DNA of 64,000 bases from a virus: positions 128,001 to 192,000 of the IMG/VR virus record IMGVR_UViG_3300045988_180880; one strand, 5' to 3'. Position numbers and translations under genes: made by a program. A model generated the notes under the pieces. It was not told where the DNA came from and did not search any database. It was given only the letters and a program-made list of their open reading frames with translations. Positions 2,809 to 63,947 of the stretch are shown in pieces (the first letter of the stretch is position 1; the number at the start of each line of letters is the position of its first letter).

Positions 2809-3178
2809 TAGTACTCTTAGTTATTATGAGAAAGATTATGTCAGTGTTAAGAGAACTCCATATGCTGAGCGAGAGAGATGTGTTAGCTTTGAACAATACA
2901 TAGAAGCTAGGTTTAATTATGAGTGTTCTAAGATTCCAGAATTATATGATGCAGTAATAGCAACAGACGGACATTTATTTTCTTGTACAGAATTAATTGA
3001 TCCTGATACAGCAAAAAGAAGGTTTACTACTGCATCAGTTGTTCTTGTAGATCCAAAAACGCTGATAGGAGCAAACGAAAATCTTATTAATGAGATATAC
3101 AGGATTCATGATTATCTTGGAGGATCTTGTATAAAATTCAATAATGTTAAGAAAAAAATTAAGTTTACAATTGAGTAA
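2765..3178 (+). CDS. hypothetical protein
   Basis: 137-aa ORF in the + block. Confidence 0.6.
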   Translation: MKTEEIIKELIARVNSTLSYYEKDYVSVKRTPYAERERCVSFEQYIEARFNYECSKIPELYDAVIATDGHLFSCTELIDPDTAKRRFTTASVVLVDPKTLIGANENLINEIYRIHDYLGGSCIKFNNVKKKIKFTIE

Positions 3179-4787: not shown

Positions 4788-5069
4788 ATGGCTAAGCAAG
4801 AGAATTTATCATTTACAGGAGAAGTTGTTGAAGAGCTCGGGAATTCTATGTTTTCAGTAGAATTAGATTCTATGGAGCATCAAGTATTATGTACTATATC
4901 AGGTAAAATTAGAAAAAATTATATAAGAATTCTAGCAGGAGATAAAGTGAAAATTGAAGTAAGTCCTTATGATTTAACAAAAGGACGGATTGTTACTAGA
5001 TTATCTCTTATAGAAAATAGTGATAACAAAAATAGTAGTAATAACAAAAAGAAATCAAAAAAGAAATGA
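4788..5069 (+). CDS. infA: translation initiation factor IF-1 homolog with Lys/Ser/Asn-rich C-terminal tail
   Basis: [27 protein letters not shown]...[33 protein letters not shown] aligns along its whole length with bacterial IF-1 ([28 protein letters not shown]). An extra ~20-aa basic tail follows. Confidence 0.9.
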
Positions 5070-18594: not shown

Positions 18595-19443
18595 TTATAT
18601 GAAATTTAATCTTTTCTGATAAATATTAAATACAAGATTTGATACATTATCTAAATATAATTTCTCTAATGACATTTGTTTAAGTTTATTATATGGAGTA
18701 CCAGATATTTTATTAGAGAATTTATATAATTGTTTTAAATTTATAGTTAATGATCTTTTTAGAAAGAATTCATTAAGTCCAATAAAATTTATAATAATAT
18801 CTATAAATTCTAATACTTTTTTATTATCTCTTATAAAATTTCCAATAATTGTTTTTGAATAGTTTATTGGAATTTCTACCATAGGTAAATTATTAGTTCT
18901 AAAATAGTTTATTATATTATTAGTTATTTTATTAAACAAGTTTATATAAGGAATTGTGTGTTCATCATTACTTCCAAATTCATAATATCTATGAATAATT
19001 ATTCCATAAACACGCTCTACATAGATATCTCTTGCTTTATCATAGATTATTTTTGCTTTATGATATTTAGAATCTATTTCTACGGCTATTCCTAAATAAG
19101 GAAAGAAATAATCTAGTAAAAAGTATCTTGTATTTCTGATACTATCATCCAATCTAACAGAGAAAGAATTTAAAATATTATTCCATAAACTTGTATTCTC
19201 AATTATTATTGGAAATTCCTCAATATAATTATAATATCCTTTAATATTGTAATTATTATCAATAAGATTTTTAAAATTAATAGAATAACTACTCTTATCG
19301 TTTAAAATTGCTTTTTCACGATTAAATACTACATCTATTAATTTATTATTGATTTTTACTTTTCTTGGAACAAAATACATTCCTATATAAGCTGTATAAA
19401 ATTTATCTCTTATTACGTAATTTCTAATCAAATTTAAATCCAT
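18595..19443 (-). CDS. PD-(D/E)XK (DUF559/Vsr-like) homing-endonuclease-like protein, paralog 1
   Basis: YFLLDYFFPYLGIAVEIDSKYHKAKIIYDKARDIYVERVYGIIIHRY parallels the 25279 and 33619 proteins (LDFY.P...lAiE.D...H....D..rd..l...G..v.r). Free-standing with its own promoter. Confidence 0.55.
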   Translation of the reverse strand: MDLNLIRNYVIRDKFYTAYIGMYFVPRKVKINNKLIDVVFNREKAILNDKSSYSINFKNLIDNNYNIKGYYNYIEEFPIIIENTSLWNNILNSFSVRLDDSIRNTRYFLLDYFFPYLGIAVEIDSKYHKAKIIYDKARDIYVERVYGIIIHRYYEFGSNDEHTIPYINLFNKITNNIINYFRTNNLPMVEIPINYSKTIIGNFIRDNKKVLEFIDIIINFIGLNEFFLKRSLTINLKQLYKFSNKISGTPYNKLKQMSLEKLYLDNVSNLVFNIYQKRLNFI

Positions 19444-19679
19444 ATTACATATTTGTTATTTATGTCAAAAGGTTAAAAAAACAAAGTAGCAAGAGTCTCT
19501 CAACCTCCTACTACCTCTACCTAATATTGCCTTAAAGCCTTGTCCGAATACTCGACCCTTATCTTTATCGACTTCTTATCTGTTAACCATATACAACAAG
19601 GTAGCTACTTAGGATCTAGAATATTAGTAAGTAGCAATCTAATATTAATAAGATTCTGCAGTTAATCTTATATCCCTAT

Positions 19680-19690
19680 CATATATAAGA
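19680..19690 (-). promoter_or_regulatory. phage promoter motif (minus strand)
   Basis: Plus strand reads catatataaga, which is TCTTATATATG on minus. The extended upstream match aaccgtctgagaaactgggaaa is almost identical to 62303-62324. It precedes a 237-nt leader to ATG 19443. Confidence 0.55.
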
Positions 19691-19748
19691 ATTTCCCAGT
19701 TTCTCAGACGGTTAAAAATAAGTTTTTGCGTTTTCTATAGAGTAAAAA

Positions 19749-27200: not shown

Positions 27201-28421
27201 ATGAAAACACTTATTATTTTAAAGGGATTAGCAAAAAGTGAAAAGCTTGAATGGGTTAAATCTCAAGGTCTAGAAAATTTCTTTCTAGATTATTCTATTT
27301 TCAAGAGATTATATAGTATGCCTGAGTTAGATCGAGATAAAACAACTGATATCTTGGGAAGAACGAATATTAATCTCATCTTTAAGTCATGGTTTGAAGC
27401 AATTAATAATAAGCTCGAATCTGGATGTCTAGTTGTTATCGATTATGATCAGGAGAAAACAAAGATTTTGGAAGATATGGGTATGATTTATGGTTATACT
27501 TGTTTCTATAAAATCTTTAATATCCCTCACGACTATACATCAAATCCAGAAAAATATAGTCCAGTAGGGTTTAAAAAGAAGACGAAAGAAGAATTAGAGG
27601 CAGAAGTTATTACATTTTTAAATCTTCAGCTTGGATATACAAAGAAAATTGGAGGATACTCTGATGTTATGGATTACTGGAAGAAGAAAGAAGTAATTCT
27701 AGATATTCCAAGAAAAGAGACGATGTATTTTTTCTCTGATCTTCATTCCAATTATTCTCTCTATCAAAAAATTAATCTCCCTTCTGGAACAATAAGAGTA
27801 CATTTGGGAGATTATATTGATGGTCCAGAAGAAGGTGGATCTAGAAAACTTATAGAAATGATTTTTAAGAATGCATCATACTATAATATATTCTTAGAGG
27901 GAAATCATGAACGTAGACTTAGAAAATTTTTATTCTGGAGATGGGCTGCAAGTAGTAACTCAGGAGGAAGTAGAGCTATTATTGCCGAAATGCTTTATAA
28001 CTCACTTCCAACAGATTTTTTAACAACAACAGCTGACGAATTTAGATCTTTAACTCCAGGAGAAGCATTGACATGGTTAAATAGATTAAATGATATCTTG
28101 AAAACCCATATAATTATTAAAAAAGATGATACTGTTTTTTATTGTACACACGCTGGAATTAAATATCTTGAACAACTTAGTCCTAAATTTATAGGAAATG
28201 TTATCTATGGAAATCGAGATATGGATATTTATGATAAATGTTTCTCAAAAACTATATGGAAACCTACAGGAAGATGGTCGGTTCATGCTCATTGTAAGTA
28301 TCCAGATGGCGTTGATTTCCTTAAATATGATGGAGTAGTTAATCTAGATCCATCATGTGAAAAAGAAATAGTTTATATGGAAAATAACATTAAAAATTTT
28401 TTACCATGCATCGTACAGTAA
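27201..28421 (+). CDS. two-domain protein: degenerate P-loop kinase-like N-terminus plus calcineurin-like (lambda-phosphatase/ApaH-type) metallophosphatase
   Basis: C-terminal half carries YFFSDLHSN (DxH), VHLGDYIDGPEEG (GDxxDrG), LEGNHERRL (GNHE), YCTHAGI and VHAHC. The N-terminus IILKGLAKSEK sits at the Walker A position but is degenerate. Confidence 0.6.
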   Translation: MKTLIILKGLAKSEKLEWVKSQGLENFFLDYSIFKRLYSMPELDRDKTTDILGRTNINLIFKSWFEAINNKLESGCLVVIDYDQEKTKILEDMGMIYGYTCFYKIFNIPHDYTSNPEKYSPVGFKKKTKEELEAEVITFLNLQLGYTKKIGGYSDVMDYWKKKEVILDIPRKETMYFFSDLHSNYSLYQKINLPSGTIRVHLGDYIDGPEEGGSRKLIEMIFKNASYYNIFLEGNHERRLRKFLFWRWAASSNSGGSRAIIAEMLYNSLPTDFLTTTADEFRSLTPGEALTWLNRLNDILKTHIIIKKDDTVFYCTHAGIKYLEQLSPKFIGNVIYGNRDMDIYDKCFSKTIWKPTGRWSVHAHCKYPDGVDFLKYDGVVNLDPSCEKEIVYMENNIKNFLPCIVQ

Positions 28422-39642: not shown

Positions 39643-40196
39643 TTTAAATTTATTTTTGGTTCTCCAGTAATTTTTCCAGTATCTATAAGATAATTTCGAA
39701 AGATTATAGTTTTTAGAAATCCTGTTACAGTTTTAAATTTCTTTTCAGGGATAGGAACCACAGAAGTCAGAATATCCTTTCTAGTAAATGAGTTTAATTC
39801 GTACTCCCTGATTAATCGGGTTCCTGGTTGTTTATTCAACGATTCTACTTCCATTATAAATGAAAGTTGTATCATTGGATCTTTATAAAGTCTTTTTGAC
39901 ATAGAATTAAGATTTGAAATTTTTGGACGGTCAATTGAGGATGCTAAAACTAATCCTACTTTAGAGAAATCCATTAATTGTATTGGTCTTTCTTTTTCGA
40001 ATTTTTCTAAGTATGGTTTTAATTTTACTTCGTCCTGTACAATTTCAAAACTAAATCCAGGTTCTGCAAACACTTCGAATCTACCATAATCTACATAAGG
40101 TATTGTAATTTTTTCTGTAGAATTTGATTCTGTAAGTACTGTATAATATACTGTGAATACATTTTGTATAACACATTGATAAACTTTTACATCCAT
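39630..40196 (-). CDS. hypothetical protein, tandem paralog B
   Basis: See 39103..39642. Confidence 0.6.
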   Translation of the reverse strand: MDVKVYQCVIQNVFTVYYTVLTESNSTEKITIPYVDYGRFEVFAEPGFSFEIVQDEVKLKPYLEKFEKERPIQLMDFSKVGLVLASSIDRPKISNLNSMSKRLYKDPMIQLSFIMEVESLNKQPGTRLIREYELNSFTRKDILTSVVPIPEKKFKTVTGFLKTIIFRNYLIDTGKITGEPKINLKWGK

Positions 40197-41974
40197 TCTT
40201 CTATAGTATTATCGTTCCACTTCACCCTAGCATATACATCTGGGGCATTATCTAATCTCAATTCTAAGTTTTTAAAATCTTCTCTGAATTCTTGAGGTAG
40301 TTCGAATACTTTATTTATTACCTCCTTCATAATTTCTCGAGCCTTTAATTGTCTGGCTTTCTTTCTCCATACTCTGGGACAAAATACGGCCGGAACATAT
40401 ATAAAGTGATCAGAAGCGGCGGATATATCTGTTATAACTACCTCAGAAGGATCTATCTCAAGTTTTTCATACTCTGGGGTGTTCCAGTATCCATATTCAT
40501 TTTTCTTTGGTTCCTTAGAAAAACATAAATACTTATCTCCTTCTTTAACAAACCATAAACTTCCGCCGCTAAACTCCTCTTTATATTTTTCTAATAAATC
40601 AGCCGGTGTTGATAGTCCCGGATCTTCATCGAAATAATCTTGAAGAATTTGTTTTATCTCTCCAACTATTTTTCCAGGAGCTAATCTAAATTCTGTCATT
40701 ATACACTCTCCTGTAACTGGAACTGTGAAATTTGCAGTAGGTTGAAGATTTTTTATTCTTTCAACTTCGGAGAGAAATGATTCAGTTTGACCTGGCATAT
40801 TCCAACAAGGTTTATGGTTCATATTATCAGCTTCAATTAACTTCATTTCATCCGTCAAGTTATCTCCAAGAAGTCTGATAAGTTGACGAGTTTTCTTTGG
40901 TTTTCCTGTATATAATCCCCGAGAATAGTCATATAGCTGTTTAATACACATATGATTTTCAACTAAGAAAACGACTTTATCAATTACTTCCCCCGGATAT
41001 TTAAGATTAGTTAGGATTTTTCTTGTTTCTTTTGCTGACTCTTTATCATGTTCATGAAATGAAAATGATCCATCTTCTTTTACTTGATAACATATTGGTT
41101 TAGAAACATCATGAAAGAGGGCTGCTAACCTAAGTTCAAGATTTGCTCCGCCTTGAATTACATGACCCAATACAGCAAGAGAATGTTCACCCCAAGTCTT
41201 ATCATGATATTTATTATTCTGTACGAAACCAATATTTAATTGAAAAATCTTAGAAATTCTCCACATAAGACATCTTCCAATTAGTTCTCGAATTCCCCAT
41301 ACTGCATTTTTTGACATTAAAATCTTAGTAAACTCATCTCTAATCCTTTCCATACTAAGAGATGAATATTCTGGAATATTATCAATCTTAGAGTATGTTT
41401 CCTCAGAAATAGTAAACATTTTAGTACAGGCAAATCTGATTGCTCTTAACATTCTAAGAGGATCATCTTTAAAAGTCTGTTCAGGATCAAGAGGCGTTCT
41501 TAAGATTCTATTCTTACAATCATCTAAACCTTTCCCCGTTGGATCTAATACCTCTCCAGTTAATAGGTTTTTATATAATGCATTACAACAAAAATCACGT
41601 CTAAAAGCATCCTCTGTGATATTAGTTTGTTGTACTGTATCTGGTTTTCTCGGTCCTTGATTATAAGTTTCAACTCTAGGTACAACACACTCTATATCTA
41701 TCTTTTCATTGGCTCCTATGTCTAATGAAAATTTCCCAGTTTTAAATCTATTATAAGTAACGAAACCAGAACATTCAGGCTTTGTTTTTAGGAAATCTAT
41801 AAAGAGATCTGTTCCTTCTGGATAATCAATACAAAGATCTATATCTTTTGGAGTTTTTCCTAAAACTAAATCCCTAACACATCCACCAACTAGATAGATT
41901 TTTTCTTTGAATTTACAATCTTGAACTACTTCTTTTAATAATTCGACTGCTTTTTCGTAATCAATTTTCTTCAT
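40187..41974 (-). CDS. cca: CCA-adding enzyme / tRNA nucleotidyltransferase with HD domain and extra C-terminal domain
   Basis: KIYLVGGCVRDLVLGKTPKDIDLCID (GGxVRD...DxD), DPLRMLRAIRFA, HD region HDKTWGEHSL...LRLAALFHDVSKP. About 150 extra C-terminal residues. Confidence 0.8.
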   Translation of the reverse strand: MKKIDYEKAVELLKEVVQDCKFKEKIYLVGGCVRDLVLGKTPKDIDLCIDYPEGTDLFIDFLKTKPECSGFVTYNRFKTGKFSLDIGANEKIDIECVVPRVETYNQGPRKPDTVQQTNITEDAFRRDFCCNALYKNLLTGEVLDPTGKGLDDCKNRILRTPLDPEQTFKDDPLRMLRAIRFACTKMFTISEETYSKIDNIPEYSSLSMERIRDEFTKILMSKNAVWGIRELIGRCLMWRISKIFQLNIGFVQNNKYHDKTWGEHSLAVLGHVIQGGANLELRLAALFHDVSKPICYQVKEDGSFSFHEHDKESAKETRKILTNLKYPGEVIDKVVFLVENHMCIKQLYDYSRGLYTGKPKKTRQLIRLLGDNLTDEMKLIEADNMNHKPCWNMPGQTESFLSEVERIKNLQPTANFTVPVTGECIMTEFRLAPGKIVGEIKQILQDYFDEDPGLSTPADLLEKYKEEFSGGSLWFVKEGDKYLCFSKEPKKNEYGYWNTPEYEKLEIDPSEVVITDISAASDHFIYVPAVFCPRVWRKKARQLKAREIMKEVINKVFELPQEFREDFKNLELRLDNAPDVYARVKWNDNTIEEWM

Positions 41975-46401: not shown

Positions 46402-47073
46402 ATGGAAAGATTAGAACAAATTTTCGAAAATGAAGTATTAAAAAATCTAAAAGAAGGTAAAATTAGTGGGAAATCTATCAAAGAACTTCCAGTATTATTT
46501 GAGAAGAGGAAAAGAAATGATAAATACACCCACTCTGAGTTATCATATATTATGAAACTTAATGACCTAGGAATACCTTATGGATTAATCGCTAAATCTA
46601 TATCTAGAACTGAAACATCCGTTAGAAATAGATGTGTTAAGTTTAGAACAGAAAATGGAACTTATAATAAGGGTCATATAGAAGAAAAATATAATCTTAA
46701 CGATAAATTCTTAAAATATCTTGAAAAAGAAGATAGAGTAATGACTATCTTAGACGCTTATTCGGGGAGTAAGCCATTTTGGACAAAGTATGAAAAAAGA
46801 AGAGTAGTATTAACAAATGATATAAATAAAGATTATCCAGCTAAATTACATTTTCCTGCTGAAGATCTTGTTAAGGTATTATATGAGAAAGAATATGAAT
46901 TTGACGTTGTAGATCTAGATCCATTTAATACTCCAATGAAATGTTTTGATAATGCAATTAAGATTTGTAATAGAGGATTAATCATGACTTTCGGGGATAA
47001 ACGAGGAATAATAAGTAATAAAAACTTAGCAAAAGAACGTTATGGATGTAGGGTCTATGATGAAAGAAAATAA
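46402..47073 (+). CDS. HTH plus Trm1-like (N2-guanine) SAM-dependent methyltransferase, frame-disrupted near the 3' end
   Basis: HTH-like SELSYIMKLNDLGIPYGLIAKSISRTETSVRNRC; ILDAYSGS (motif I); LTNDIN; FDVVDLDPFNTP matches the Trm1 DLDPFGsP motif; GLIMTFGD parallels gGlL.vTaTD. Confidence 0.55.
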   Translation: MERLEQIFENEVLKNLKEGKISGKSIKELPVLFEKRKRNDKYTHSELSYIMKLNDLGIPYGLIAKSISRTETSVRNRCVKFRTENGTYNKGHIEEKYNLNDKFLKYLEKEDRVMTILDAYSGSKPFWTKYEKRRVVLTNDINKDYPAKLHFPAEDLVKVLYEKEYEFDVVDLDPFNTPMKCFDNAIKICNRGLIMTFGDKRGIISNKNLAKERYGCRVYDERK

Positions 47074-53469: not shown

Positions 53470-53603
53470 TTTTGAAGCCTAGAAAAAGAAAAATCCCCAA
53501 TCTTCACAGACTAGGGACTTCTATTAAACTTTAAAAACTAATACTAACAAACAAAACACATCTATATGTTTACCATTAATTAAGATTCTGAATCGCTGTA
53601 AAG

Positions 53604-61998: not shown

Positions 61999-62244
61999 TT
62001 AAAGATATTTTTCTAGAAATTCTTTTAGTTCTTCCTCTGTACTATTTACAAAGGAAAATATTTTTTGTTTGGGTACATATTTTCCTTTAACTTTTTCTAC
62101 ACAAAACACTACTAGGTTAGTTCCAAAAAGTTCTAGTTGATCCATTCCATCATATCCTCCAAAGAAACTTCCTTTTTTAGTTTCATACAGATCTATATCT
62201 GGATAATTCTTTTCAAAATAATTGTAAACTTCTTTCTGTGTCAT
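61999..62244 (-). CDS. hypothetical protein
   Basis: 81-aa ORF; promoter variant 26 nt upstream. Confidence 0.6.
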   Translation of the reverse strand: MTQKEVYNYFEKNYPDIDLYETKKGSFFGGYDGMDQLELFGTNLVVFCVEKVKGKYVPKQKIFSFVNSTEEELKEFLEKYL

Positions 62245-62269
62245 TTTTCTTAATTTATTTTACTATTTA

Positions 62270-62280
62270 CACATATAAGG
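62270..62280 (-). promoter_or_regulatory. promoter motif variant (minus strand)
   Basis: Plus strand cacatataagg, which is CCTTATATGTG on minus. Confidence 0.45.
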
Positions 62281-62324
62281 AAATCAACCGTCCAAAAATT
62301 CGACCGTCTGAGAAACCGGGAAAA

Positions 62325-62335
62325 TCTTATAAATG
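62325..62335 (+). promoter_or_regulatory. phage promoter motif driving an ORF-less unit
   Basis: tcttataaatg, with the extended upstream accgtctgagaaaccgggaaaa nearly identical to the 19691-19712 reverse complement. No ORF longer than about 8 codons lies before the stem/T-run at 62627-62658. Confidence 0.55.
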
Positions 62336-62545
62336 TATTAAAAGACACAATAACAAAAAAAAGACATCATAGGCGTCTCAAGAAATGCGTAATGTATAGC
62401 TTGAGCTTGTGAAGAACTGAAAAATCATGTAAGGTTTAAATCTCACTAATCTCTTCAGAACTTCTACGTTTATGAGGTGCAAAATTAAACAACTTTAAAC
62501 GACACAACAACAAAATTAAAATTAAAATAATTAACTGAATCTATA

Positions 62546-62623
62546 GACAAGATAGTTTAGCGGGTCAAAACACTAAGATAATTGTTTATCTTAGAATCTC
62601 AGGTTAGAATCCTGATCAAGTTC
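62546..62623 (+). ncRNA. tRNA-like element (non-canonical; not confidently a functional tRNA)
   Basis: TA at positions 8-9; D-arm gttt-agcgggtca-aaac with A14, GG and A21; T-arm tcagg-ttagaat-cctga. However, the acceptor gacaaga/tcaagtt has 2 mismatches, the T-loop has A where C56 should be, and the anticodon arm is ctaagat-aattgttt-atcttag (7 bp/8 nt, or 8 bp/6 nt). No encoded CCA. Confidence 0.35.
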
Positions 62624-62708
62624 TCTAGATTTATAATAGTTAATTATTTTATTTTTTCCAACTGGATTCTGTATTAAAAATATTTTCCATCTCAAAAAAT
62701 GCTAAAAG

Positions 62709-62719
62709 CCTTATATATG
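62709..62719 (+). promoter_or_regulatory. phage promoter motif
   Basis: ccttatatatg; ends 33 nt before ATG 62752. Confidence 0.55.
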
Positions 62720-62751
62720 AGATAATAAAAGTAAATAAATACTCCTTAAGC

Positions 62752-63066
62752 ATGACAAAAAGCTTAAAGGAGTTTAATTTTTTAAAAATAAAGATTATGA
62801 AAAGAATTAACAAAATGAATGAGTTGAATGTAGTAAACAGTAAAGTAACGGCAGAATTAGTTAAACCAGAAATTACAGGACATGCTACATCAAATTTTGA
62901 AACAACCTTCCCTATTCCAAAGGTAGGAGAAGTGAAAATGAAGATTGACGTGACAAGTACAGTAACGTCATCAATAGCCGCTCAAGAAAAATTGGATGAG
63001 TTGGCAGAAAAAAAGAGCAAACCGAACCTTAGAAAACATTGGAAAATTTGTGGGTTTGGTACTTGA
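62752..63066 (+). CDS. hypothetical protein, 5' part of a probably frame-disrupted gene
   Basis: The ORF may really start at ATG 62797, whose upstream 17-mer aaaaataaagattatgaaaa is identical to the one at the 6259 start. The frame is lost at the A7 run 63008-63014. Confidence 0.5.
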   Translation: MTKSLKEFNFLKIKIMKRINKMNELNVVNSKVTAELVKPEITGHATSNFETTFPIPKVGEVKMKIDVTSTVTSSIAAQEKLDELAEKKSKPNLRKHWKICGFGT

Positions 63067-63376
63067 GAAATCTCCGGAAATATTTGATATGTTCCAGAGT
63101 TTCGCAGAAAAGAATGAACAATACAAAGAAAAGTTCAGAGAAAAACAAAGCTTGGAAGAATGGGATGAAAAAGTAAATAATCTCATCTTCCTGCTAAGAC
63201 AAAAACCTAGTTCAATGACGAATCTAGAGTTTTTAGAAGAGACGTTAGAGAATGGGGATTATGAATCTCAAAAAATCTCTAAATGGGCGATCTTACAGTT
63301 TAATAAAAATAACCTTGGATTGCTGAATGAAAGACAAAGAGATTCATTAGCTAGTATAGGTTTTATTGGCTATTGA
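62996..63376 (+). CDS. hypothetical protein, 3' part (+1 frame) of the same gene
   Basis: The +1 frame after the A7 run reads ..KKRANRTLENIGKFVGLVLEKSPEIFDMFQSFAEKNEQ..., which looks more protein-like than the frame-1 tail SKPNLRKHWKICGFGT. Confidence 0.5.
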   Translation: MSWQKKRANRTLENIGKFVGLVLEKSPEIFDMFQSFAEKNEQYKEKFREKQSLEEWDEKVNNLIFLLRQKPSSMTNLEFLEETLENGDYESQKISKWAILQFNKNNLGLLNERQRDSLASIGFIGY

Positions 63377-63467: not shown

Positions 63468-63947
63468 ATGGGAACAAATTTCTATGCAGTAATCCCAGTG
63501 AAAAAAAGGGATAAAGAAAAAGCAAAAAAATTAATTGACGAAAACAAATTTAGTGAAGCAGCCGATCTTTTAAAGGATATAACAAAAGAAATACACCTAG
63601 GTAAAAGATCGGCCGGGTGGAAGTTTTTATTCAACGCCAATCTCGGAAAATATTATGAACTTACTCGCGAAGGTATAAATAAGTTCTTCGCGAAAAATAA
63701 TGTTATAATAAAAGACGAATATGGCGTTGAGTATACGGCCGAGGAATTTTGGGAGAGTGAATTAAAAGAGTTCTTGGATAAAGGATATGACTTAGAGAGC
63801 TACTATAATGACAATCCAGATGAAGTTAGTCCATATTTTAGCTACTCTCGATCAATACCTTCCGAACTAAAAAAATATAACCCAAATAAATACGGGGAAT
63901 TTTATAGTGATGGTCTAAGATTCACCATCACTGAAGATTTTTGTTAA
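63468..63947 (+). CDS. hypothetical protein
   Basis: 159-aa ORF; contains two CGGCCG sites. Confidence 0.65.
   Translation: MGTNFYAVIPVKKRDKEKAKKLIDENKFSEAADLLKDITKEIHLGKRSAGWKFLFNANLGKYYELTREGINKFFAKNNVIIKDEYGVEYTAEEFWESELKEFLDKGYDLESYYNDNPDEVSPYFSYSRSIPSELKKYNPNKYGEFYSDGLRFTITEDFC

What the first reader, a model, noticed from the sequence alone, without database searches (positions are those of the whole stretch)
62325..62660. Second ORF-less promoter-driven unit containing a tRNA-like element with an aberrant anticodon arm
A promoter motif at 62325, with the same extended upstream block as the 19680 copy, is followed by ~320 nt with no ORF longer than about 8 codons. This stretch contains hairpins (ctcaag...cttgag; gaagaactgaa...ttcagaacttc) and then a tRNA-shaped segment (62546-62623). 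That segment has good D-arm features (U8, A14, GG, A21) and a 5-bp T-stem with a 7-nt loop. It also has two acceptor mismatches, A instead of C56, and an anticodon arm of 7 bp with an 8-nt loop (AATTGTTT), or 8 bp with 6 nt. The whole tRNA-like part is clamped by a long outer stem (aaaataattaact..aatctatag / ctctagatt..agttaattatttt) followed by a T-run. Options are a processed unusual tRNA (8-nt loops occur in frameshift suppressors), a tRNA mimic or decoy for host nucleases or the phage CCA enzyme, or a decayed tRNA gene.
Basis: seen in the sequence. Interest (0 to 1): 0.65.

Follow-up and report, generated by a model that had tools for sequence, protein, structure and literature searches.

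The report
Anticodon-less tRNA mimic in phage RNA
A huge gut phage carries a conserved, separately transcribed ~317-nt non-coding RNA whose 3' half folds like a tRNA but has no anticodon and no free acceptor end, so it cannot decode and most likely imitates tRNA to engage tRNA-binding proteins.

Summary
Rfam's tRNA model hits 62546-62623(+) at 39.8 bits (cut-off 29). It is the only credible RNA hit in the 64-kb window, and ARAGORN calls nothing.

The unit runs from the promoter at 62303-62335 to the U-run at 62657. It has no conserved ORF. It is less variable than the flanking genes in about 30 close relatives.

Diverged copies exist in four further phage clades (L057, L100, L108, L111). Across all five clades, 13 of 25 cloverleaf pairs change on both sides (shuffles 4.0±1.5; 0/500).

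The "anticodon arm" is only a hairpin of 3-10 bp. Its loop has 3-7 nt and no fixed sequence (UUGU, ACAA, UCU, UUAG, GAAA). This excludes a decoding or frameshift-suppressor tRNA. The conservation and covariation exclude a decayed gene.

In four clades the acceptor end is closed by a long clamp helix. Its sequence differs between clades but its pairing persists. The same four clades also have a conserved 5' three-way-junction domain and two GACACAAYA motifs.

Best reading: a new family of non-decoding tRNA-mimic ncRNA in Jug-like Bacteroidales phages. Its protein partner and function are unknown. A decoy or scaffold for proteins that bind the tRNA elbow is inferred, not shown.

The parts
62303..62323 (+). 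Upstream promoter box ACCGTCTGAGAAACCGGGAAA (CCGTCT box)
   Evidence: It occurs only here and at 19692-19712(-) in the window, with 0 expected. It is conserved in front of the RNA in clades B, C, D and E. Conservation among close relatives begins just upstream of it, at about 62290.
62326..62335 (+). Core promoter motif CTTATAAATG, resembling a Bacteroidetes -7 box. The inferred transcription start is about 62340-62343.
   Evidence: The motif occurs 14 times against 1.1 expected. Most copies lie in intergenic DNA, often a few tens of nt before a start codon. The start site is inferred, not measured.
62344..62354 (+). Single-stranded motif 1, GACACAATAAC, at the 5' end of the RNA
   Evidence: GACACAAYA occurs only twice in the 64 kb, both times inside this RNA. 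It is kept in clades B and E, and as AACACAATAAC in clade D.
62364..62478 (+). 5' three-way-junction domain. P1 is 62367-62376 with 62466-62475. P2 is 62377-62405. P3 is 62411-62464.
   Evidence: MFE fold. It is the least variable stretch of the region (pi = 0.002 for 62400-62499). P1 and P2 are conserved in clades B, D and E. Changes on both sides occur in distal P2 (C-G to U-A) and in proximal P2 (A-U to G-C in L108). P3 is replaced by unrelated hairpins in clades B and D.
62479..62523 (+). A/C-rich single-stranded linker containing motif 2, GACACAACAAC (62501-62511). Its 3' part varies in length.
   Evidence: GCAAA(A)TTAAACAACTTTAA(A)CGACACAAC is conserved in clades A, B and E, and with AAACACAAC in clade D. 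Indels of 6 and 7 nt occur at 62505-62520 among close relatives.
62524..62545 (+). 5' strand of the clamp helix: distal 62524-62536, proximal 62537-62545
   Evidence: It pairs with 62624-62650 in the MFE and centroid folds. Equivalent clamps with unrelated sequences form in clades A', B, D and E. The change to clade B includes a compensating base-pair insertion.
62546..62623 (+). tRNA-shaped module. Acceptor 62546-62552 with 62616-62622. D arm 62555-62571. Hairpin in place of the anticodon arm 62573-62594, with tip UUGU at 62582-62585. T arm 62599-62615, with A56 at 62606. Position 73 is 62623.
   Evidence: Rfam tRNA 39.8 bits. ARAGORN finds no gene. Five-clade alignment A6: 92.1% of cells paired, and 13 of 25 pairs changed on both sides against 4.0±1.5 in shuffles.
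62624..62650 (+). 3' strand of the clamp helix: proximal 62624-62632, 5-nt bulge 62633-62637, distal 62638-62650
   Evidence: A second allele of this strand (L042, L043, L050/L054) keeps the pairing with different details.
62652..62657 (+). U-run directly after the clamp. This is the inferred transcript end. In this clade the clamp doubles as the terminator hairpin.
   Evidence: Read from the sequence. The simple terminator scan does not call it, because the stem is AU-rich. Clades B, D and E have a separate hairpin plus U-run downstream of the clamp.

Best explanation
**What it is.** 62303-62657(+) is a self-contained gene for a stable non-coding RNA of about 317 nt.

**Anatomy.**
- The 3' half is a tRNA-shaped module. 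It has a cloverleaf and the nucleotides that build the L-shape and elbow.
- The anticodon arm is reduced to an arbitrary hairpin.
- The acceptor end is closed by a long clamp helix with internal loops or mismatches, mostly purine-rich. As transcribed it therefore cannot decode, and it has no 3' end available for charging.
- The 5' half is a conserved three-way junction flanked by two copies of a single-stranded GACACAAYA motif.

**Inferred mechanism.** The module acts as a tRNA mimic. It presents the elbow and the T/D-arm surface to one or more proteins that recognise tRNA by shape. Candidates are RNase P, RNase Z, the CCA-adding enzyme, modification enzymes, and tRNA-targeting defence nucleases. 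The RNA would either soak them up or tether them to whatever binds the 5' domain.

**Shown:**
- the transcription-unit signals;
- the absence of coding capacity;
- the conservation;
- the covariation-supported fold;
- the loss of an anticodon.

**Inferred:**
- that the RNA accumulates;
- that it stays unprocessed;
- who binds it;
- what the effect is.
For: tRNA model and gene finders:
- Rfam tRNA hits of 39.8, 46.3 and 46.0 bits in three clades.
- ARAGORN is negative in all clades.

Fold:
- In the five-clade alignment the D, anticodon-position and T helices are 100% paired.
- 13 of 25 pairs change on both sides (0 of 500 shuffles reach this), and the structure far exceeds all slid controls.
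- Tertiary nucleotides U8, A14, A9/A23/U12, G15/C48, GG, U54/A58 and A21 are kept.
- A56 always co-occurs with D loop GGGUCA, and C56 with GGUA. This fits a 19-56 pair switching between U-A and G-C.

Anticodon position and clamp:
- Hairpin length and tip are unconstrained.
- The clamp helix forms in five sequence-unrelated versions. In clades B, D and E it is separate from the terminator.

Unit as a whole:
- Diversity is 0.002-0.02 in the RNA against 0.03-0.10 in the flanks.
- No ORF is conserved on either strand.
- Promoter motif and box.
- Clade C keeps only promoter, tRNA-like module and terminator, which marks the module as the core.

Context and precedent:
- The phage encodes a CCA-adding/HD enzyme, a kinase-phosphoesterase and a Trm1-like protein, but the 64 kb contain no tRNA gene.
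- Bacterial Y RNAs are a precedent for tRNA-like modules on a long stem (PMC4201824).
Against: - There are no expression, end-mapping or binding data, so the partner and the effect are guesses.
- The covariation alignment was fitted to a model built from clade A, which favours the structure.
- The five clades are few and related, so the shuffle test overstates independence.
- Clade C lacks both the clamp and the 5' domain. It looks like an ordinary monocistronic pre-tRNA-like transcript, which fits processing better than an embedded module.
- Position 73 is a one-nucleotide bulge in clades A and B, exactly where a discriminator base would sit. This hints at processing.
- No partner gene is evident. 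The only syntenic neighbour (the 159-aa protein) has no family match and no PDB fold match. It also occurs without the RNA in more distant phages.
Confidence: 0.55

Rival explanations
1. The unit is a precursor. RNase P cuts at G62546. RNase Z or exonucleases cut after C62623, possibly after RNase III opens the clamp. The phage or host CCA-adding enzyme then adds CCA. The result is a free ~78-nt tRNA-like small RNA plus a separate ~200-nt 5' RNA. This is how mascRNA is cut from MALAT1, and how M. smegmatis YrlA is cleaved and CCA-tailed.
For: - Clade C is just promoter, a leader of 8 nt or less, the tRNA-like module, a trailer and a terminator, like a normal pre-tRNA.
- Acceptor plus T stem keep the 7+5 geometry.
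- Position 73 is an unpaired bulge in clades A and B (sequence).
- The phage encodes a CCA-adding enzyme with an HD domain, although no tRNA gene is seen in the 64 kb.
Against: - The acceptor helix is only 72.6% paired.
- It carries internal loops of 2x2, 3x3 or 4x4, mostly of purines, in clades A, D and E.
- In clade D the helix runs straight through positions 1/72 with no boundary.
- The clamp is conserved by compensatory change in four clades. That is not needed if the flanks are simply discarded.
- Position 73 and pairs 1-72 to 3-70 differ between clades (C, G or U at 73). No aminoacylation identity is conserved.
Confidence: 0.27
2. It is a decoding tRNA with an aberrant anticodon arm, for example a frameshift or nonsense suppressor with an expanded loop.
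For: - The Rfam tRNA hit.
- The adjacent ORF 62752-63376 is frameshifted in this window.
Against: - The loop differs in length and sequence between near-identical genomes. It is 3-5 nt in clades B, D and E and on a 2-3-bp stub in clade C. U33 and any anticodon are absent.
- ARAGORN is negative everywhere.
- The neighbouring frameshift is a length polymorphism of an A run: A5, A6 or A7. Most relatives have the in-frame A6.
- The acceptor end is buried in a helix.
Confidence: 0.02
3. It is a decayed tRNA gene or a remnant of an integration site, with no function of its own.
For: - Acceptor mismatches.
- A56.
- No anticodon.
Against: - Diversity is lower than in neighbouring genes.
- It has a dedicated, conserved promoter.
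- 13 pairs change on both sides across clades.
- No similar tRNA or site was found in 185,579 species genomes with a D-loop/T-loop pattern taken from this clade, or in phage records.
Confidence: 0.02
4. It is mainly a cis-acting element. It could be an elaborate terminator or insulator, or an attenuator controlling read-through into the downstream genes (62752 onward). It could also be a DNA-level site.
For: - In this clade the clamp sits directly before a U-run.
- The RNA always lies upstream of the same gene neighbourhood.
- A conserved motif, CAACTGGATTCTGTATTAAAAAT, follows it.
Against: - The downstream gene has its own promoter motif after the U-run in every clade.
- In clades B, D and E a separate terminator follows the clamp, so the clamp and the tRNA shape are not needed for termination.
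- Strand-specific G-U pairs and compensatory changes indicate selection at the RNA level.
- A terminator does not need an L-shaped tRNA fold or a conserved 115-nt 5' domain.
Confidence: 0.08

Closest known systems
Canonical tRNA (Rfam RF00005)
   Same: - Cloverleaf with a 7/4/5-bp acceptor, D and T geometry.
- U8, A14, GG, A21, U54-U55, A58, and the G15-C48 Levitt pair.
- It scores above the family's gathering threshold.
   Different: - There is no 7-nt anticodon loop, no U33 and no conserved anticodon.
- The arm at that position varies from 3 to 10 bp.
- The acceptor helix has internal loops and continues into a clamp, so there is no free end and no encoded CCA.
- ARAGORN rejects it.
Bacterial Y RNAs (YrlA; D. 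radiodurans Yrn1), which are tRNA-like modules on a long stem (PMC4201824)
   Same: - A non-decoding tRNA-like domain with D and T arms sits on a long helix that has bulges.
- Members also occur in phages.
- The Yrn1 orientation (D arm, anticodon-like arm, then T arm, with the stem at the acceptor position) matches this RNA.
- The bipartite tethering logic is similar.
   Different: - No Rfam Y-RNA-type family is hit.
- The window has no TROVE/Ro60 gene.
- The stem is not formed by the RNA termini, because 200 nt precede it.
- The stem is AU-rich, and I see no GNCGAA motif in the RNA.
- In YrlA itself the module is circularly permuted.
mascRNA / MALAT1 and MEN-beta tRNA-like elements (from my own knowledge)
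   Same: - A tRNA-like fold lies at the 3' end of a longer non-coding transcript.
- The anticodon loop is not conserved.
- The element is not used in translation.
   Different: - Those are eukaryotic.
- They are shown to be cut by RNase P and RNase Z and to receive CCA.
- Here processing is untested, and the acceptor is imperfect and clamped.
tmRNA
   Same: - A bipartite RNA with a tRNA-like domain and a second functional domain.
- Huge phages sometimes encode it.
   Different: - The tRNA-like domain of tmRNA is built from the two RNA ends and has a chargeable acceptor with G3-U70.
- tmRNA has a tag ORF.
- Here ARAGORN finds no tmRNA.
- The only linker ORF is broken by a 7-nt indel and changes frame between clades.
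- Pair 3-70 is C-G, U-G, U-A, A-U or G-C.
Phage T4 stable RNAs 'species 1 and 2' (rnaC, rnaD) (from my own knowledge)
   Same: They are phage-encoded small stable RNAs of unknown function, linked to tRNA biology and with tRNA-like processing.
   Different: - They lie inside the T4 tRNA gene cluster and are co-transcribed with real tRNAs.
- No sequence relationship was found in phage records.
- The present RNA has its own promoter and no tRNA genes nearby.

Membership tests
tRNA (decoding transfer RNA) | Four-helix cloverleaf maintained in evolution | tested here: met
   92.1% of cells are paired. 13 of 25 pairs change on both sides against 4.0±1.5 in shuffles (0/500). The D, anticodon-position and T helices are 100% paired. 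The alignment was fitted to the model.
tRNA (decoding transfer RNA) | Nucleotides that build the L-shape and elbow (U8-A14, G15-C48, G18/G19 with U55/C56, U54-A58) | tested here: met
   All are present in all five clades. Position 56 is A in clades A, D and E, always with D loop GGGUCA. It is C in clades B and C with GGUA. This may be a 19-56 covariation.
tRNA (decoding transfer RNA) | 5-bp anticodon stem with a 7-nt loop, U33 and a conserved anticodon | tested here: not met
   The stem is 3-10 bp. The loops are UUGU, ACAA, UUUGUU, UUGUU, UCU, UUAG and GAAA, plus a 13-nt stub.
tRNA (decoding transfer RNA) | Fully paired 7-bp acceptor stem with free ends, a discriminator base and a 3' CCA (encoded or added) | tested here: not met
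   The acceptor is 72.6% paired, and positions 4-69 and 5-68 are unpaired in 8 of 10 or 11 sequences. The ends continue into a clamp helix in clades A, B, D and E. No CCA is encoded. Post-transcriptional processing is not testable here.
tRNA (decoding transfer RNA) | Recognised by a tRNA gene finder | tested here: not met
   ARAGORN finds 0 genes in the window and in L057, L100, L108 and L111.
tRNA (decoding transfer RNA) | Aminoacylation and use on the ribosome | not testable with these tools
   This needs tRNA sequencing, periodate oxidation or acid gels. Candidate identity positions (73 and pairs 1-72 to 3-70) are not conserved between clades.
Bacterial Y RNA (YrlA / Yrn1) | tRNA-like domain with D and T arms that does not decode | tested here: met
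Bacterial Y RNA (YrlA / Yrn1) | Encoded next to a Ro60 (TROVE) gene | tested here: not met
   The Pfam scan of ORFs of 90 aa or more in the 64-kb window found no TROVE domain. The rest of the ~330-380-kb genome could not be examined.
Bacterial Y RNA (YrlA / Yrn1) | Stem formed by the 5' and 3' ends of the RNA, carrying the Ro60-binding helix or motif; match to Y-RNA covariance models | tested here: not met
   Rfam gives no hit other than tRNA at E of 0.3 or below in 62200-62800, or at E of 5 or below in the whole window apart from two unrelated weak hits. The clamp is internal to the transcript and AU-rich.
tmRNA | tRNA-like domain with a chargeable alanine acceptor (G3-U70), plus a conserved tag reading frame | tested here: not met
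   ARAGORN finds no tmRNA. Pair 3-70 is never G-U. The linker ORF is broken by indels and changes frame.
mascRNA-type tRNA-like 3' elements | tRNA-like fold with an unconserved anticodon loop at the 3' end of a longer ncRNA | tested here: met
mascRNA-type tRNA-like 3' elements | Release by RNase P and RNase Z, followed by CCA addition | not testable with these tools
   This needs mapping of RNA ends. A CCA-adding enzyme gene is present at 40187-41974(-).

The most novel reading that the evidence does not exclude
The RNA is an RNA-based counter-defence or hijacking device of abundant human-gut huge phages. On this reading it is a two-module ribonucleoprotein scaffold, functionally like a Y RNA but unrelated to it.
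- The anticodon-less tRNA module would bait a host enzyme that recognises tRNA by shape. Candidates are a tRNA-cleaving immune nuclease, RNase P or RNase Z.
- The 5' junction domain and the paired GACACAAYA motifs would bind a second factor. The bait would thereby be neutralised or redirected.
Probability: 0.15. Interest if true: 0.85.

Novelty: new variant of a known kind. Interest (0 to 1): 0.66.

Why it matters
- **tRNA is a major battleground between phages and bacteria.** Hosts cleave anticodon loops, variable loops and CCA tails. Phages answer with their own tRNAs and repair enzymes. A conserved phage RNA that keeps the tRNA body but discards both the anticodon and the free acceptor end would be a different kind of answer, acting through shape mimicry.
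- **The phages concerned are common.** They appear to belong to, or be close to, the Jug phages of Bacteroides/Phocaeicola. Those phages are reported to make up about 1% of human gut metagenome reads (PMC12880540). That paper's main text does not mention tRNA at all.
- **It is a tractable structural object.** The family has a covariation-supported fold, natural variants and a minimal version (clade C). This makes it useful for asking which tRNA features are read by shape-recognising proteins.
- **It shows a blind spot in annotation.** tRNA gene finders reject it, while the covariance model accepts it.

Tried and rejected
**Searches that found nothing relevant**
- No DNA similarity in 50,697 phage records, with the 511-nt unit, a 24-kb stretch or the 91-nt module.
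- Pattern scans for further clades returned only chance hits:
  - D-loop/T-loop pattern in viral contigs (L037-L041);
  - the same type of pattern in species genomes (L055, L056);
  - P1 3' strand (L061, L062);
  - linker (L098, L099 are coding).
- More distant homologues of the 159-aa neighbour (30-57% identity) have no tRNA-like element nearby. L091 has two ordinary tRNAs upstream.

**Tests that were uninformative**
- Covariation within clade A alone is not significant: 1 pair with a double change, and 151 of 500 shuffles reach it.
- The MAFFT alignment across clades (A3) was not structure-consistent. I replaced it with a model-based alignment.
- The 159-aa neighbour gave no clue:
  - no Pfam family;
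  - no PDB sequence match;
  - a confident model (pLDDT 93) with no PDB fold match (best E = 2.7, TM below 0.3).

**Ideas rejected**
- tmRNA-like tag ORF (AKLNNFKR...): rejected because of a 7-nt indel and a frame change.
- Minus-strand 34-aa ORF under the 5' domain: rejected because clade B reads the conserved P2 region in another frame.
- Antisense targets of GACACAAYAAC: none in the window.
- SpF41 sRNA (22.8 bits against 52) and SAM-II (14.1 bits) are sub-threshold chance hits.
- No hammerhead-like motif in the window.
- The 19680 unit is not a paralogue. It has no tRNA-like hit and its fold is no better than shuffles (z = -0.09).
Full report
**1.

- CTTATAAATG lies at 62326-62335. It belongs to a motif found 14 times in the window against 1.1 expected. 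Most copies lie in intergenic DNA, often a few tens of nt before a start codon.
- The extended block ACCGTCTGAGAAACYGGGAAA occurs only here and at 19692-19712(-).
- Rfam's tRNA model matches 62546-62623 exactly, at 39.8 bits against a gathering score of 29. E = 6.5e-05 for the window against all 4227 families.
- A permissive scan of the whole window finds no other credible RNA. ARAGORN finds no tRNA or tmRNA anywhere.
- The 3' domain and the whole ~320-nt RNA fold better than all shuffles (z = -4.0 and -3.7).
- One detail needs correcting. Fully paired, the anticodon arm is 9 bp with a 4-nt loop.

**2. The host genome.**

- The window has ~30% G+C.
- It encodes IF-1, ClpP, a ClpB-like ATPase, NAD synthase, an amidase and an IMPDH-like protein.
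- It also encodes a CCA-adding enzyme with an HD domain, a kinase/phosphoesterase and a Trm1-like methyltransferase fragment.
- Relatives are uncultivated viral contigs of 230-378 kb from the human gut.
- Size, composition and frequent domains fit the Jug phages of Bacteroides/Phocaeicola (PMC12880540). This assignment is an inference.
- That paper's main text does not mention tRNA.

**3. Close relatives (clade A).**

Seventeen IMG/VR contigs and thirteen metagenome contigs carry the unit once each.

- Conservation starts just upstream of the CCGTCT promoter box, at about 62290, and ends after the U-run.
- Pairwise diversity is 0.002 for 62400-62499 and about 0.02 for the tRNA-like part. Flanking genes show 0.03-0.10.
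- The variable spots are an A run after the start site, a spacer with 6- or 7-nt indels, and the tip of the anticodon hairpin. The tip is UUGU, ACAA (an inverted tip), UUUGUU or UUGUU.
- A second allele of the 3' acceptor and clamp strand exists in L042, L043 and L050/L054. With it, pair 3-70 goes from C-G via U-G to U-A, and 1-72 goes from G-U to G-C. Positions 4*69 and 5*68 stay purine-purine mismatches.
- On its own this clade gives no significant covariation.

**4. Diverged homologues.**

A relaxed search for the promoter box found clade B (L057/L059). Homologues of the 159-aa neighbour led to three more clades:

- clade C (L100/L101; neighbour protein 60% identical);
- clade D (L108; 70%);
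- clade E (L111; 80%).

The tRNA-like module is found by Rfam at 46.3 bits in clade B and 46.0 bits in clade C. My clade-A model finds it in all four. ARAGORN rejects all of them.

Clades B, D and E share the full architecture:

- the promoter box, doubled in B and D;
- GACACAATAAC at the 5' end;
- a three-way junction with conserved P1 and P2 and a replaceable P3;
- the linker GCAAATTAAACAACTTTAAC(G/A)ACACAAC;
- a clamp helix;
- the tRNA-like module.

Clade C has only promoter, module and terminator.

**5. The fold is under selection.**

- On the model-based five-clade alignment, 92.1% of cells pair.
- 13 of 25 pairs change on both sides, against 4.0±1.5 in shuffles (0 of 500 reach it).
- Every slid control collapses to 30-50% pairing.
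- The D, anticodon-position and T helices are 100% paired. The acceptor helix is 72.6% paired.
- Caveats: the alignment is fitted to the structure, and the clades are few and related.
- Tertiary nucleotides are kept throughout.
- A56 occurs only with D loop GGGUCA (clades A, D, E), and C56 only with GGUA (clades B, C). This fits a 19-56 pair that is U-A in one group and G-C in the other. With at most two independent switches, this is only suggestive.
- The clamp forms in the MFE fold of five versions with unrelated sequences (z = -2.3 to -3.7).
- Between clades A and B the clamp differs by changes on both sides and by a compensating base-pair insertion.
- In clades B, D and E a separate hairpin plus U-run follows the clamp. 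The clamp is therefore not merely a terminator.
- In the 5' domain, distal P2 shows C-G to U-A, and proximal P2 shows A-U to G-C in clade D.

**6. What it is not.**

- *Not a decoding tRNA.* The arm at the anticodon position varies by clade:

| Clade | Stem | Loop |
|---|---|---|
| A | 9-10 bp | 4-6 nt |
| B | 5 bp | UCU |
| C | 2-3 bp (13-nt stub) | 5-9 nt, depending on register |
| D | 6 bp | UUAG |
| E | 7 bp | GAAA |

- *Not tied to the neighbouring frameshift.* The frameshift in ORF 62752-63376 is an A5/A6/A7 run polymorphism. Most relatives are in frame.
- *Not a pseudogene.* See sections 3 and 5.
- *Not coding.* ATG ORFs are 8 codons or fewer in this window (up to 12 in clade B). Longer mechanical frames are broken by indels or read in different frames in different clades.
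- *Not tmRNA.* ARAGORN is negative, there is no conserved tag frame, and there is no G3-U70 pair.
- *Not demonstrably a Y RNA.* There is no Rfam hit and no TROVE gene in the window. The stem is internal and AU-rich.

**7. How it most likely works (inference).**

The features under selection are:

- the tRNA body and elbow;
- a helix of any length at the anticodon position;
- a closed, imperfect acceptor helix extended by a clamp;
- in four of five clades, a second structured domain with two single-stranded GACACAAYA motifs. These occur nowhere else in the window and have no antisense target there.

This pattern fits an RNA that is recognised as a tRNA by shape. Proteins that read the elbow and T/D arms could do so. 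It can neither be used in translation nor, as transcribed, be charged.

I therefore favour a tRNA-mimic module that sequesters or recruits a tRNA-binding protein. The 5' domain would serve as a second binding platform. Bacterial Y RNAs are the nearest functional precedent (PMC4201824).

The main rival is processing by RNase P and RNase Z, followed by CCA addition, to give a free ~78-nt RNA.

- For the rival:
  - clade C's simple layout;
  - the bulged position 73 in clades A and B;
  - the phage CCA-adding enzyme;
  - the precedent that M. smegmatis YrlA is cleaved by RNase P and CCA-tailed.
- Against the rival:
  - the internal loops in the acceptor;
  - the unbroken helix in clade D;
  - the conserved clamp.

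Neither reading can be settled without RNA end-mapping.

**8. The neighbourhood gives no partner.**

- The only consistently syntenic gene is the 159-aa ORF at 63468-63947.
- It has no Pfam family or PDB sequence match.
- It gives a confident model (pLDDT 93) with no PDB fold match.
- It occurs without the RNA in more distant phages.

**9. Verdict.**

- This is a real, conserved non-coding RNA gene restricted to a group of huge gut phages. It contains an anticodon-less, end-clamped tRNA mimic.
- It belongs to the known kind "tRNA-like ncRNA modules" but to no described family.
- Its function is unknown. A shape-mimicry decoy or scaffold is the best-supported reading (confidence about 0.55). 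A processed free tRNA-like RNA is second (about 0.27).

Noticed in passing
window 19474-19712 (-) and ORF 18595-19443 (-); L111 2380-3510: The other unit with the CCGTCT promoter box is a ~200-nt leader ending in a hairpin plus U-run. It lies just before a 282-aa ORF with a weak match to the N-terminal domain of PvuRts1I-like endonucleases (19.8 bits). It has no tRNA-like hit, and its fold is no better than shuffles (z = -0.09). In L111 a homologous cassette sits immediately upstream of the tRNA-like unit, so it looks like a mobile endonuclease cassette.
   Followed up: partly
window 63008-63014 (ORFs 62752-63066 and 62996-63376): An A7 run splits the gene into two overlapping ORFs here and in L020 and L029. 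Most relatives have A6 and a single ~200-aa ORF. L034 has A5. This could be an assembly error, phase variation or slippage. In frame 0 the sequence reads A_AAA_AAG.
   Followed up: partly
window, 14 sites such as 242, 6727, 19750, 30841, 46283, 58116, 60002, 62710 and 63438: The promoter-like motif CTTATAWATG occurs 14 times against 1.1 expected. It is often preceded by CTTAAAAnCC, and most copies lie in intergenic DNA, often a few tens of nt before a start codon. This resembles a Bacteroidetes -7 box. A sub-class carries a CC(G/A)TCT box about 20 nt upstream (19688-, 62327+, and a degenerate copy at 62711+).
   Followed up: partly
window 62659-62681; L057, L100 and L108 at equivalent places: The motif CAACTGGATTCTGTATTAAAAAT follows the RNA's U-run. 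Near-identical copies lie after terminators and about 40 nt before promoter motifs in other clades. In L057 and L100 they lie directly upstream of the RNA's own promoter box.
   Followed up: no
window 40187-41974 (-), 27201-28421 (+), 46402-47073 (+), 4788-5069 (+): The window encodes tRNA- and translation-related proteins, although the 64 kb contain no tRNA gene. These are a CCA-adding enzyme with an HD domain and a long C-terminal extension, a kinase-like plus metallophosphoesterase protein (PHROG 'RNA ligase'), a Trm1-like fragment (27.6 bits against a cut-off of 27), and IF-1.
   Followed up: partly
window 63468-63947 (+): The 159-aa protein is syntenic with the RNA. It has invariant residues H43, G45, K46, S48, G50 and W51. 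AlphaFold gives pLDDT 93, but no PDB fold matches (best E = 2.7). It is widespread in huge-phage contigs, with 242 homologues.
   Followed up: partly
L100 1740-2340 and about 2995-3030: In clade C the tRNA-like unit is followed by about 600 nt without called genes and without an Rfam hit. About 1 kb further downstream is a sequence with a hammerhead-like core (CUGAUGAG-stem-CGAAAC) that Rfam did not report.
   Followed up: no
L107 2713-3912: An IS605 OrfB / TnpB (Cas12f-like) gene is inserted directly upstream of the homologue of the 159-aa gene in one relative.
   Followed up: no
window 53482-53522 (-): A sub-threshold Rfam match to ctRNA_p42d (28.2 bits against 50, E = 0.051) lies in the gap between two minus-strand ORFs.
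   Followed up: no
L091 2332-2415 and 3099-3174: A distant homologue of the 159-aa protein (33% identity) lies about 800 nt downstream of two ordinary tRNA genes in another viral contig.
   Followed up: no
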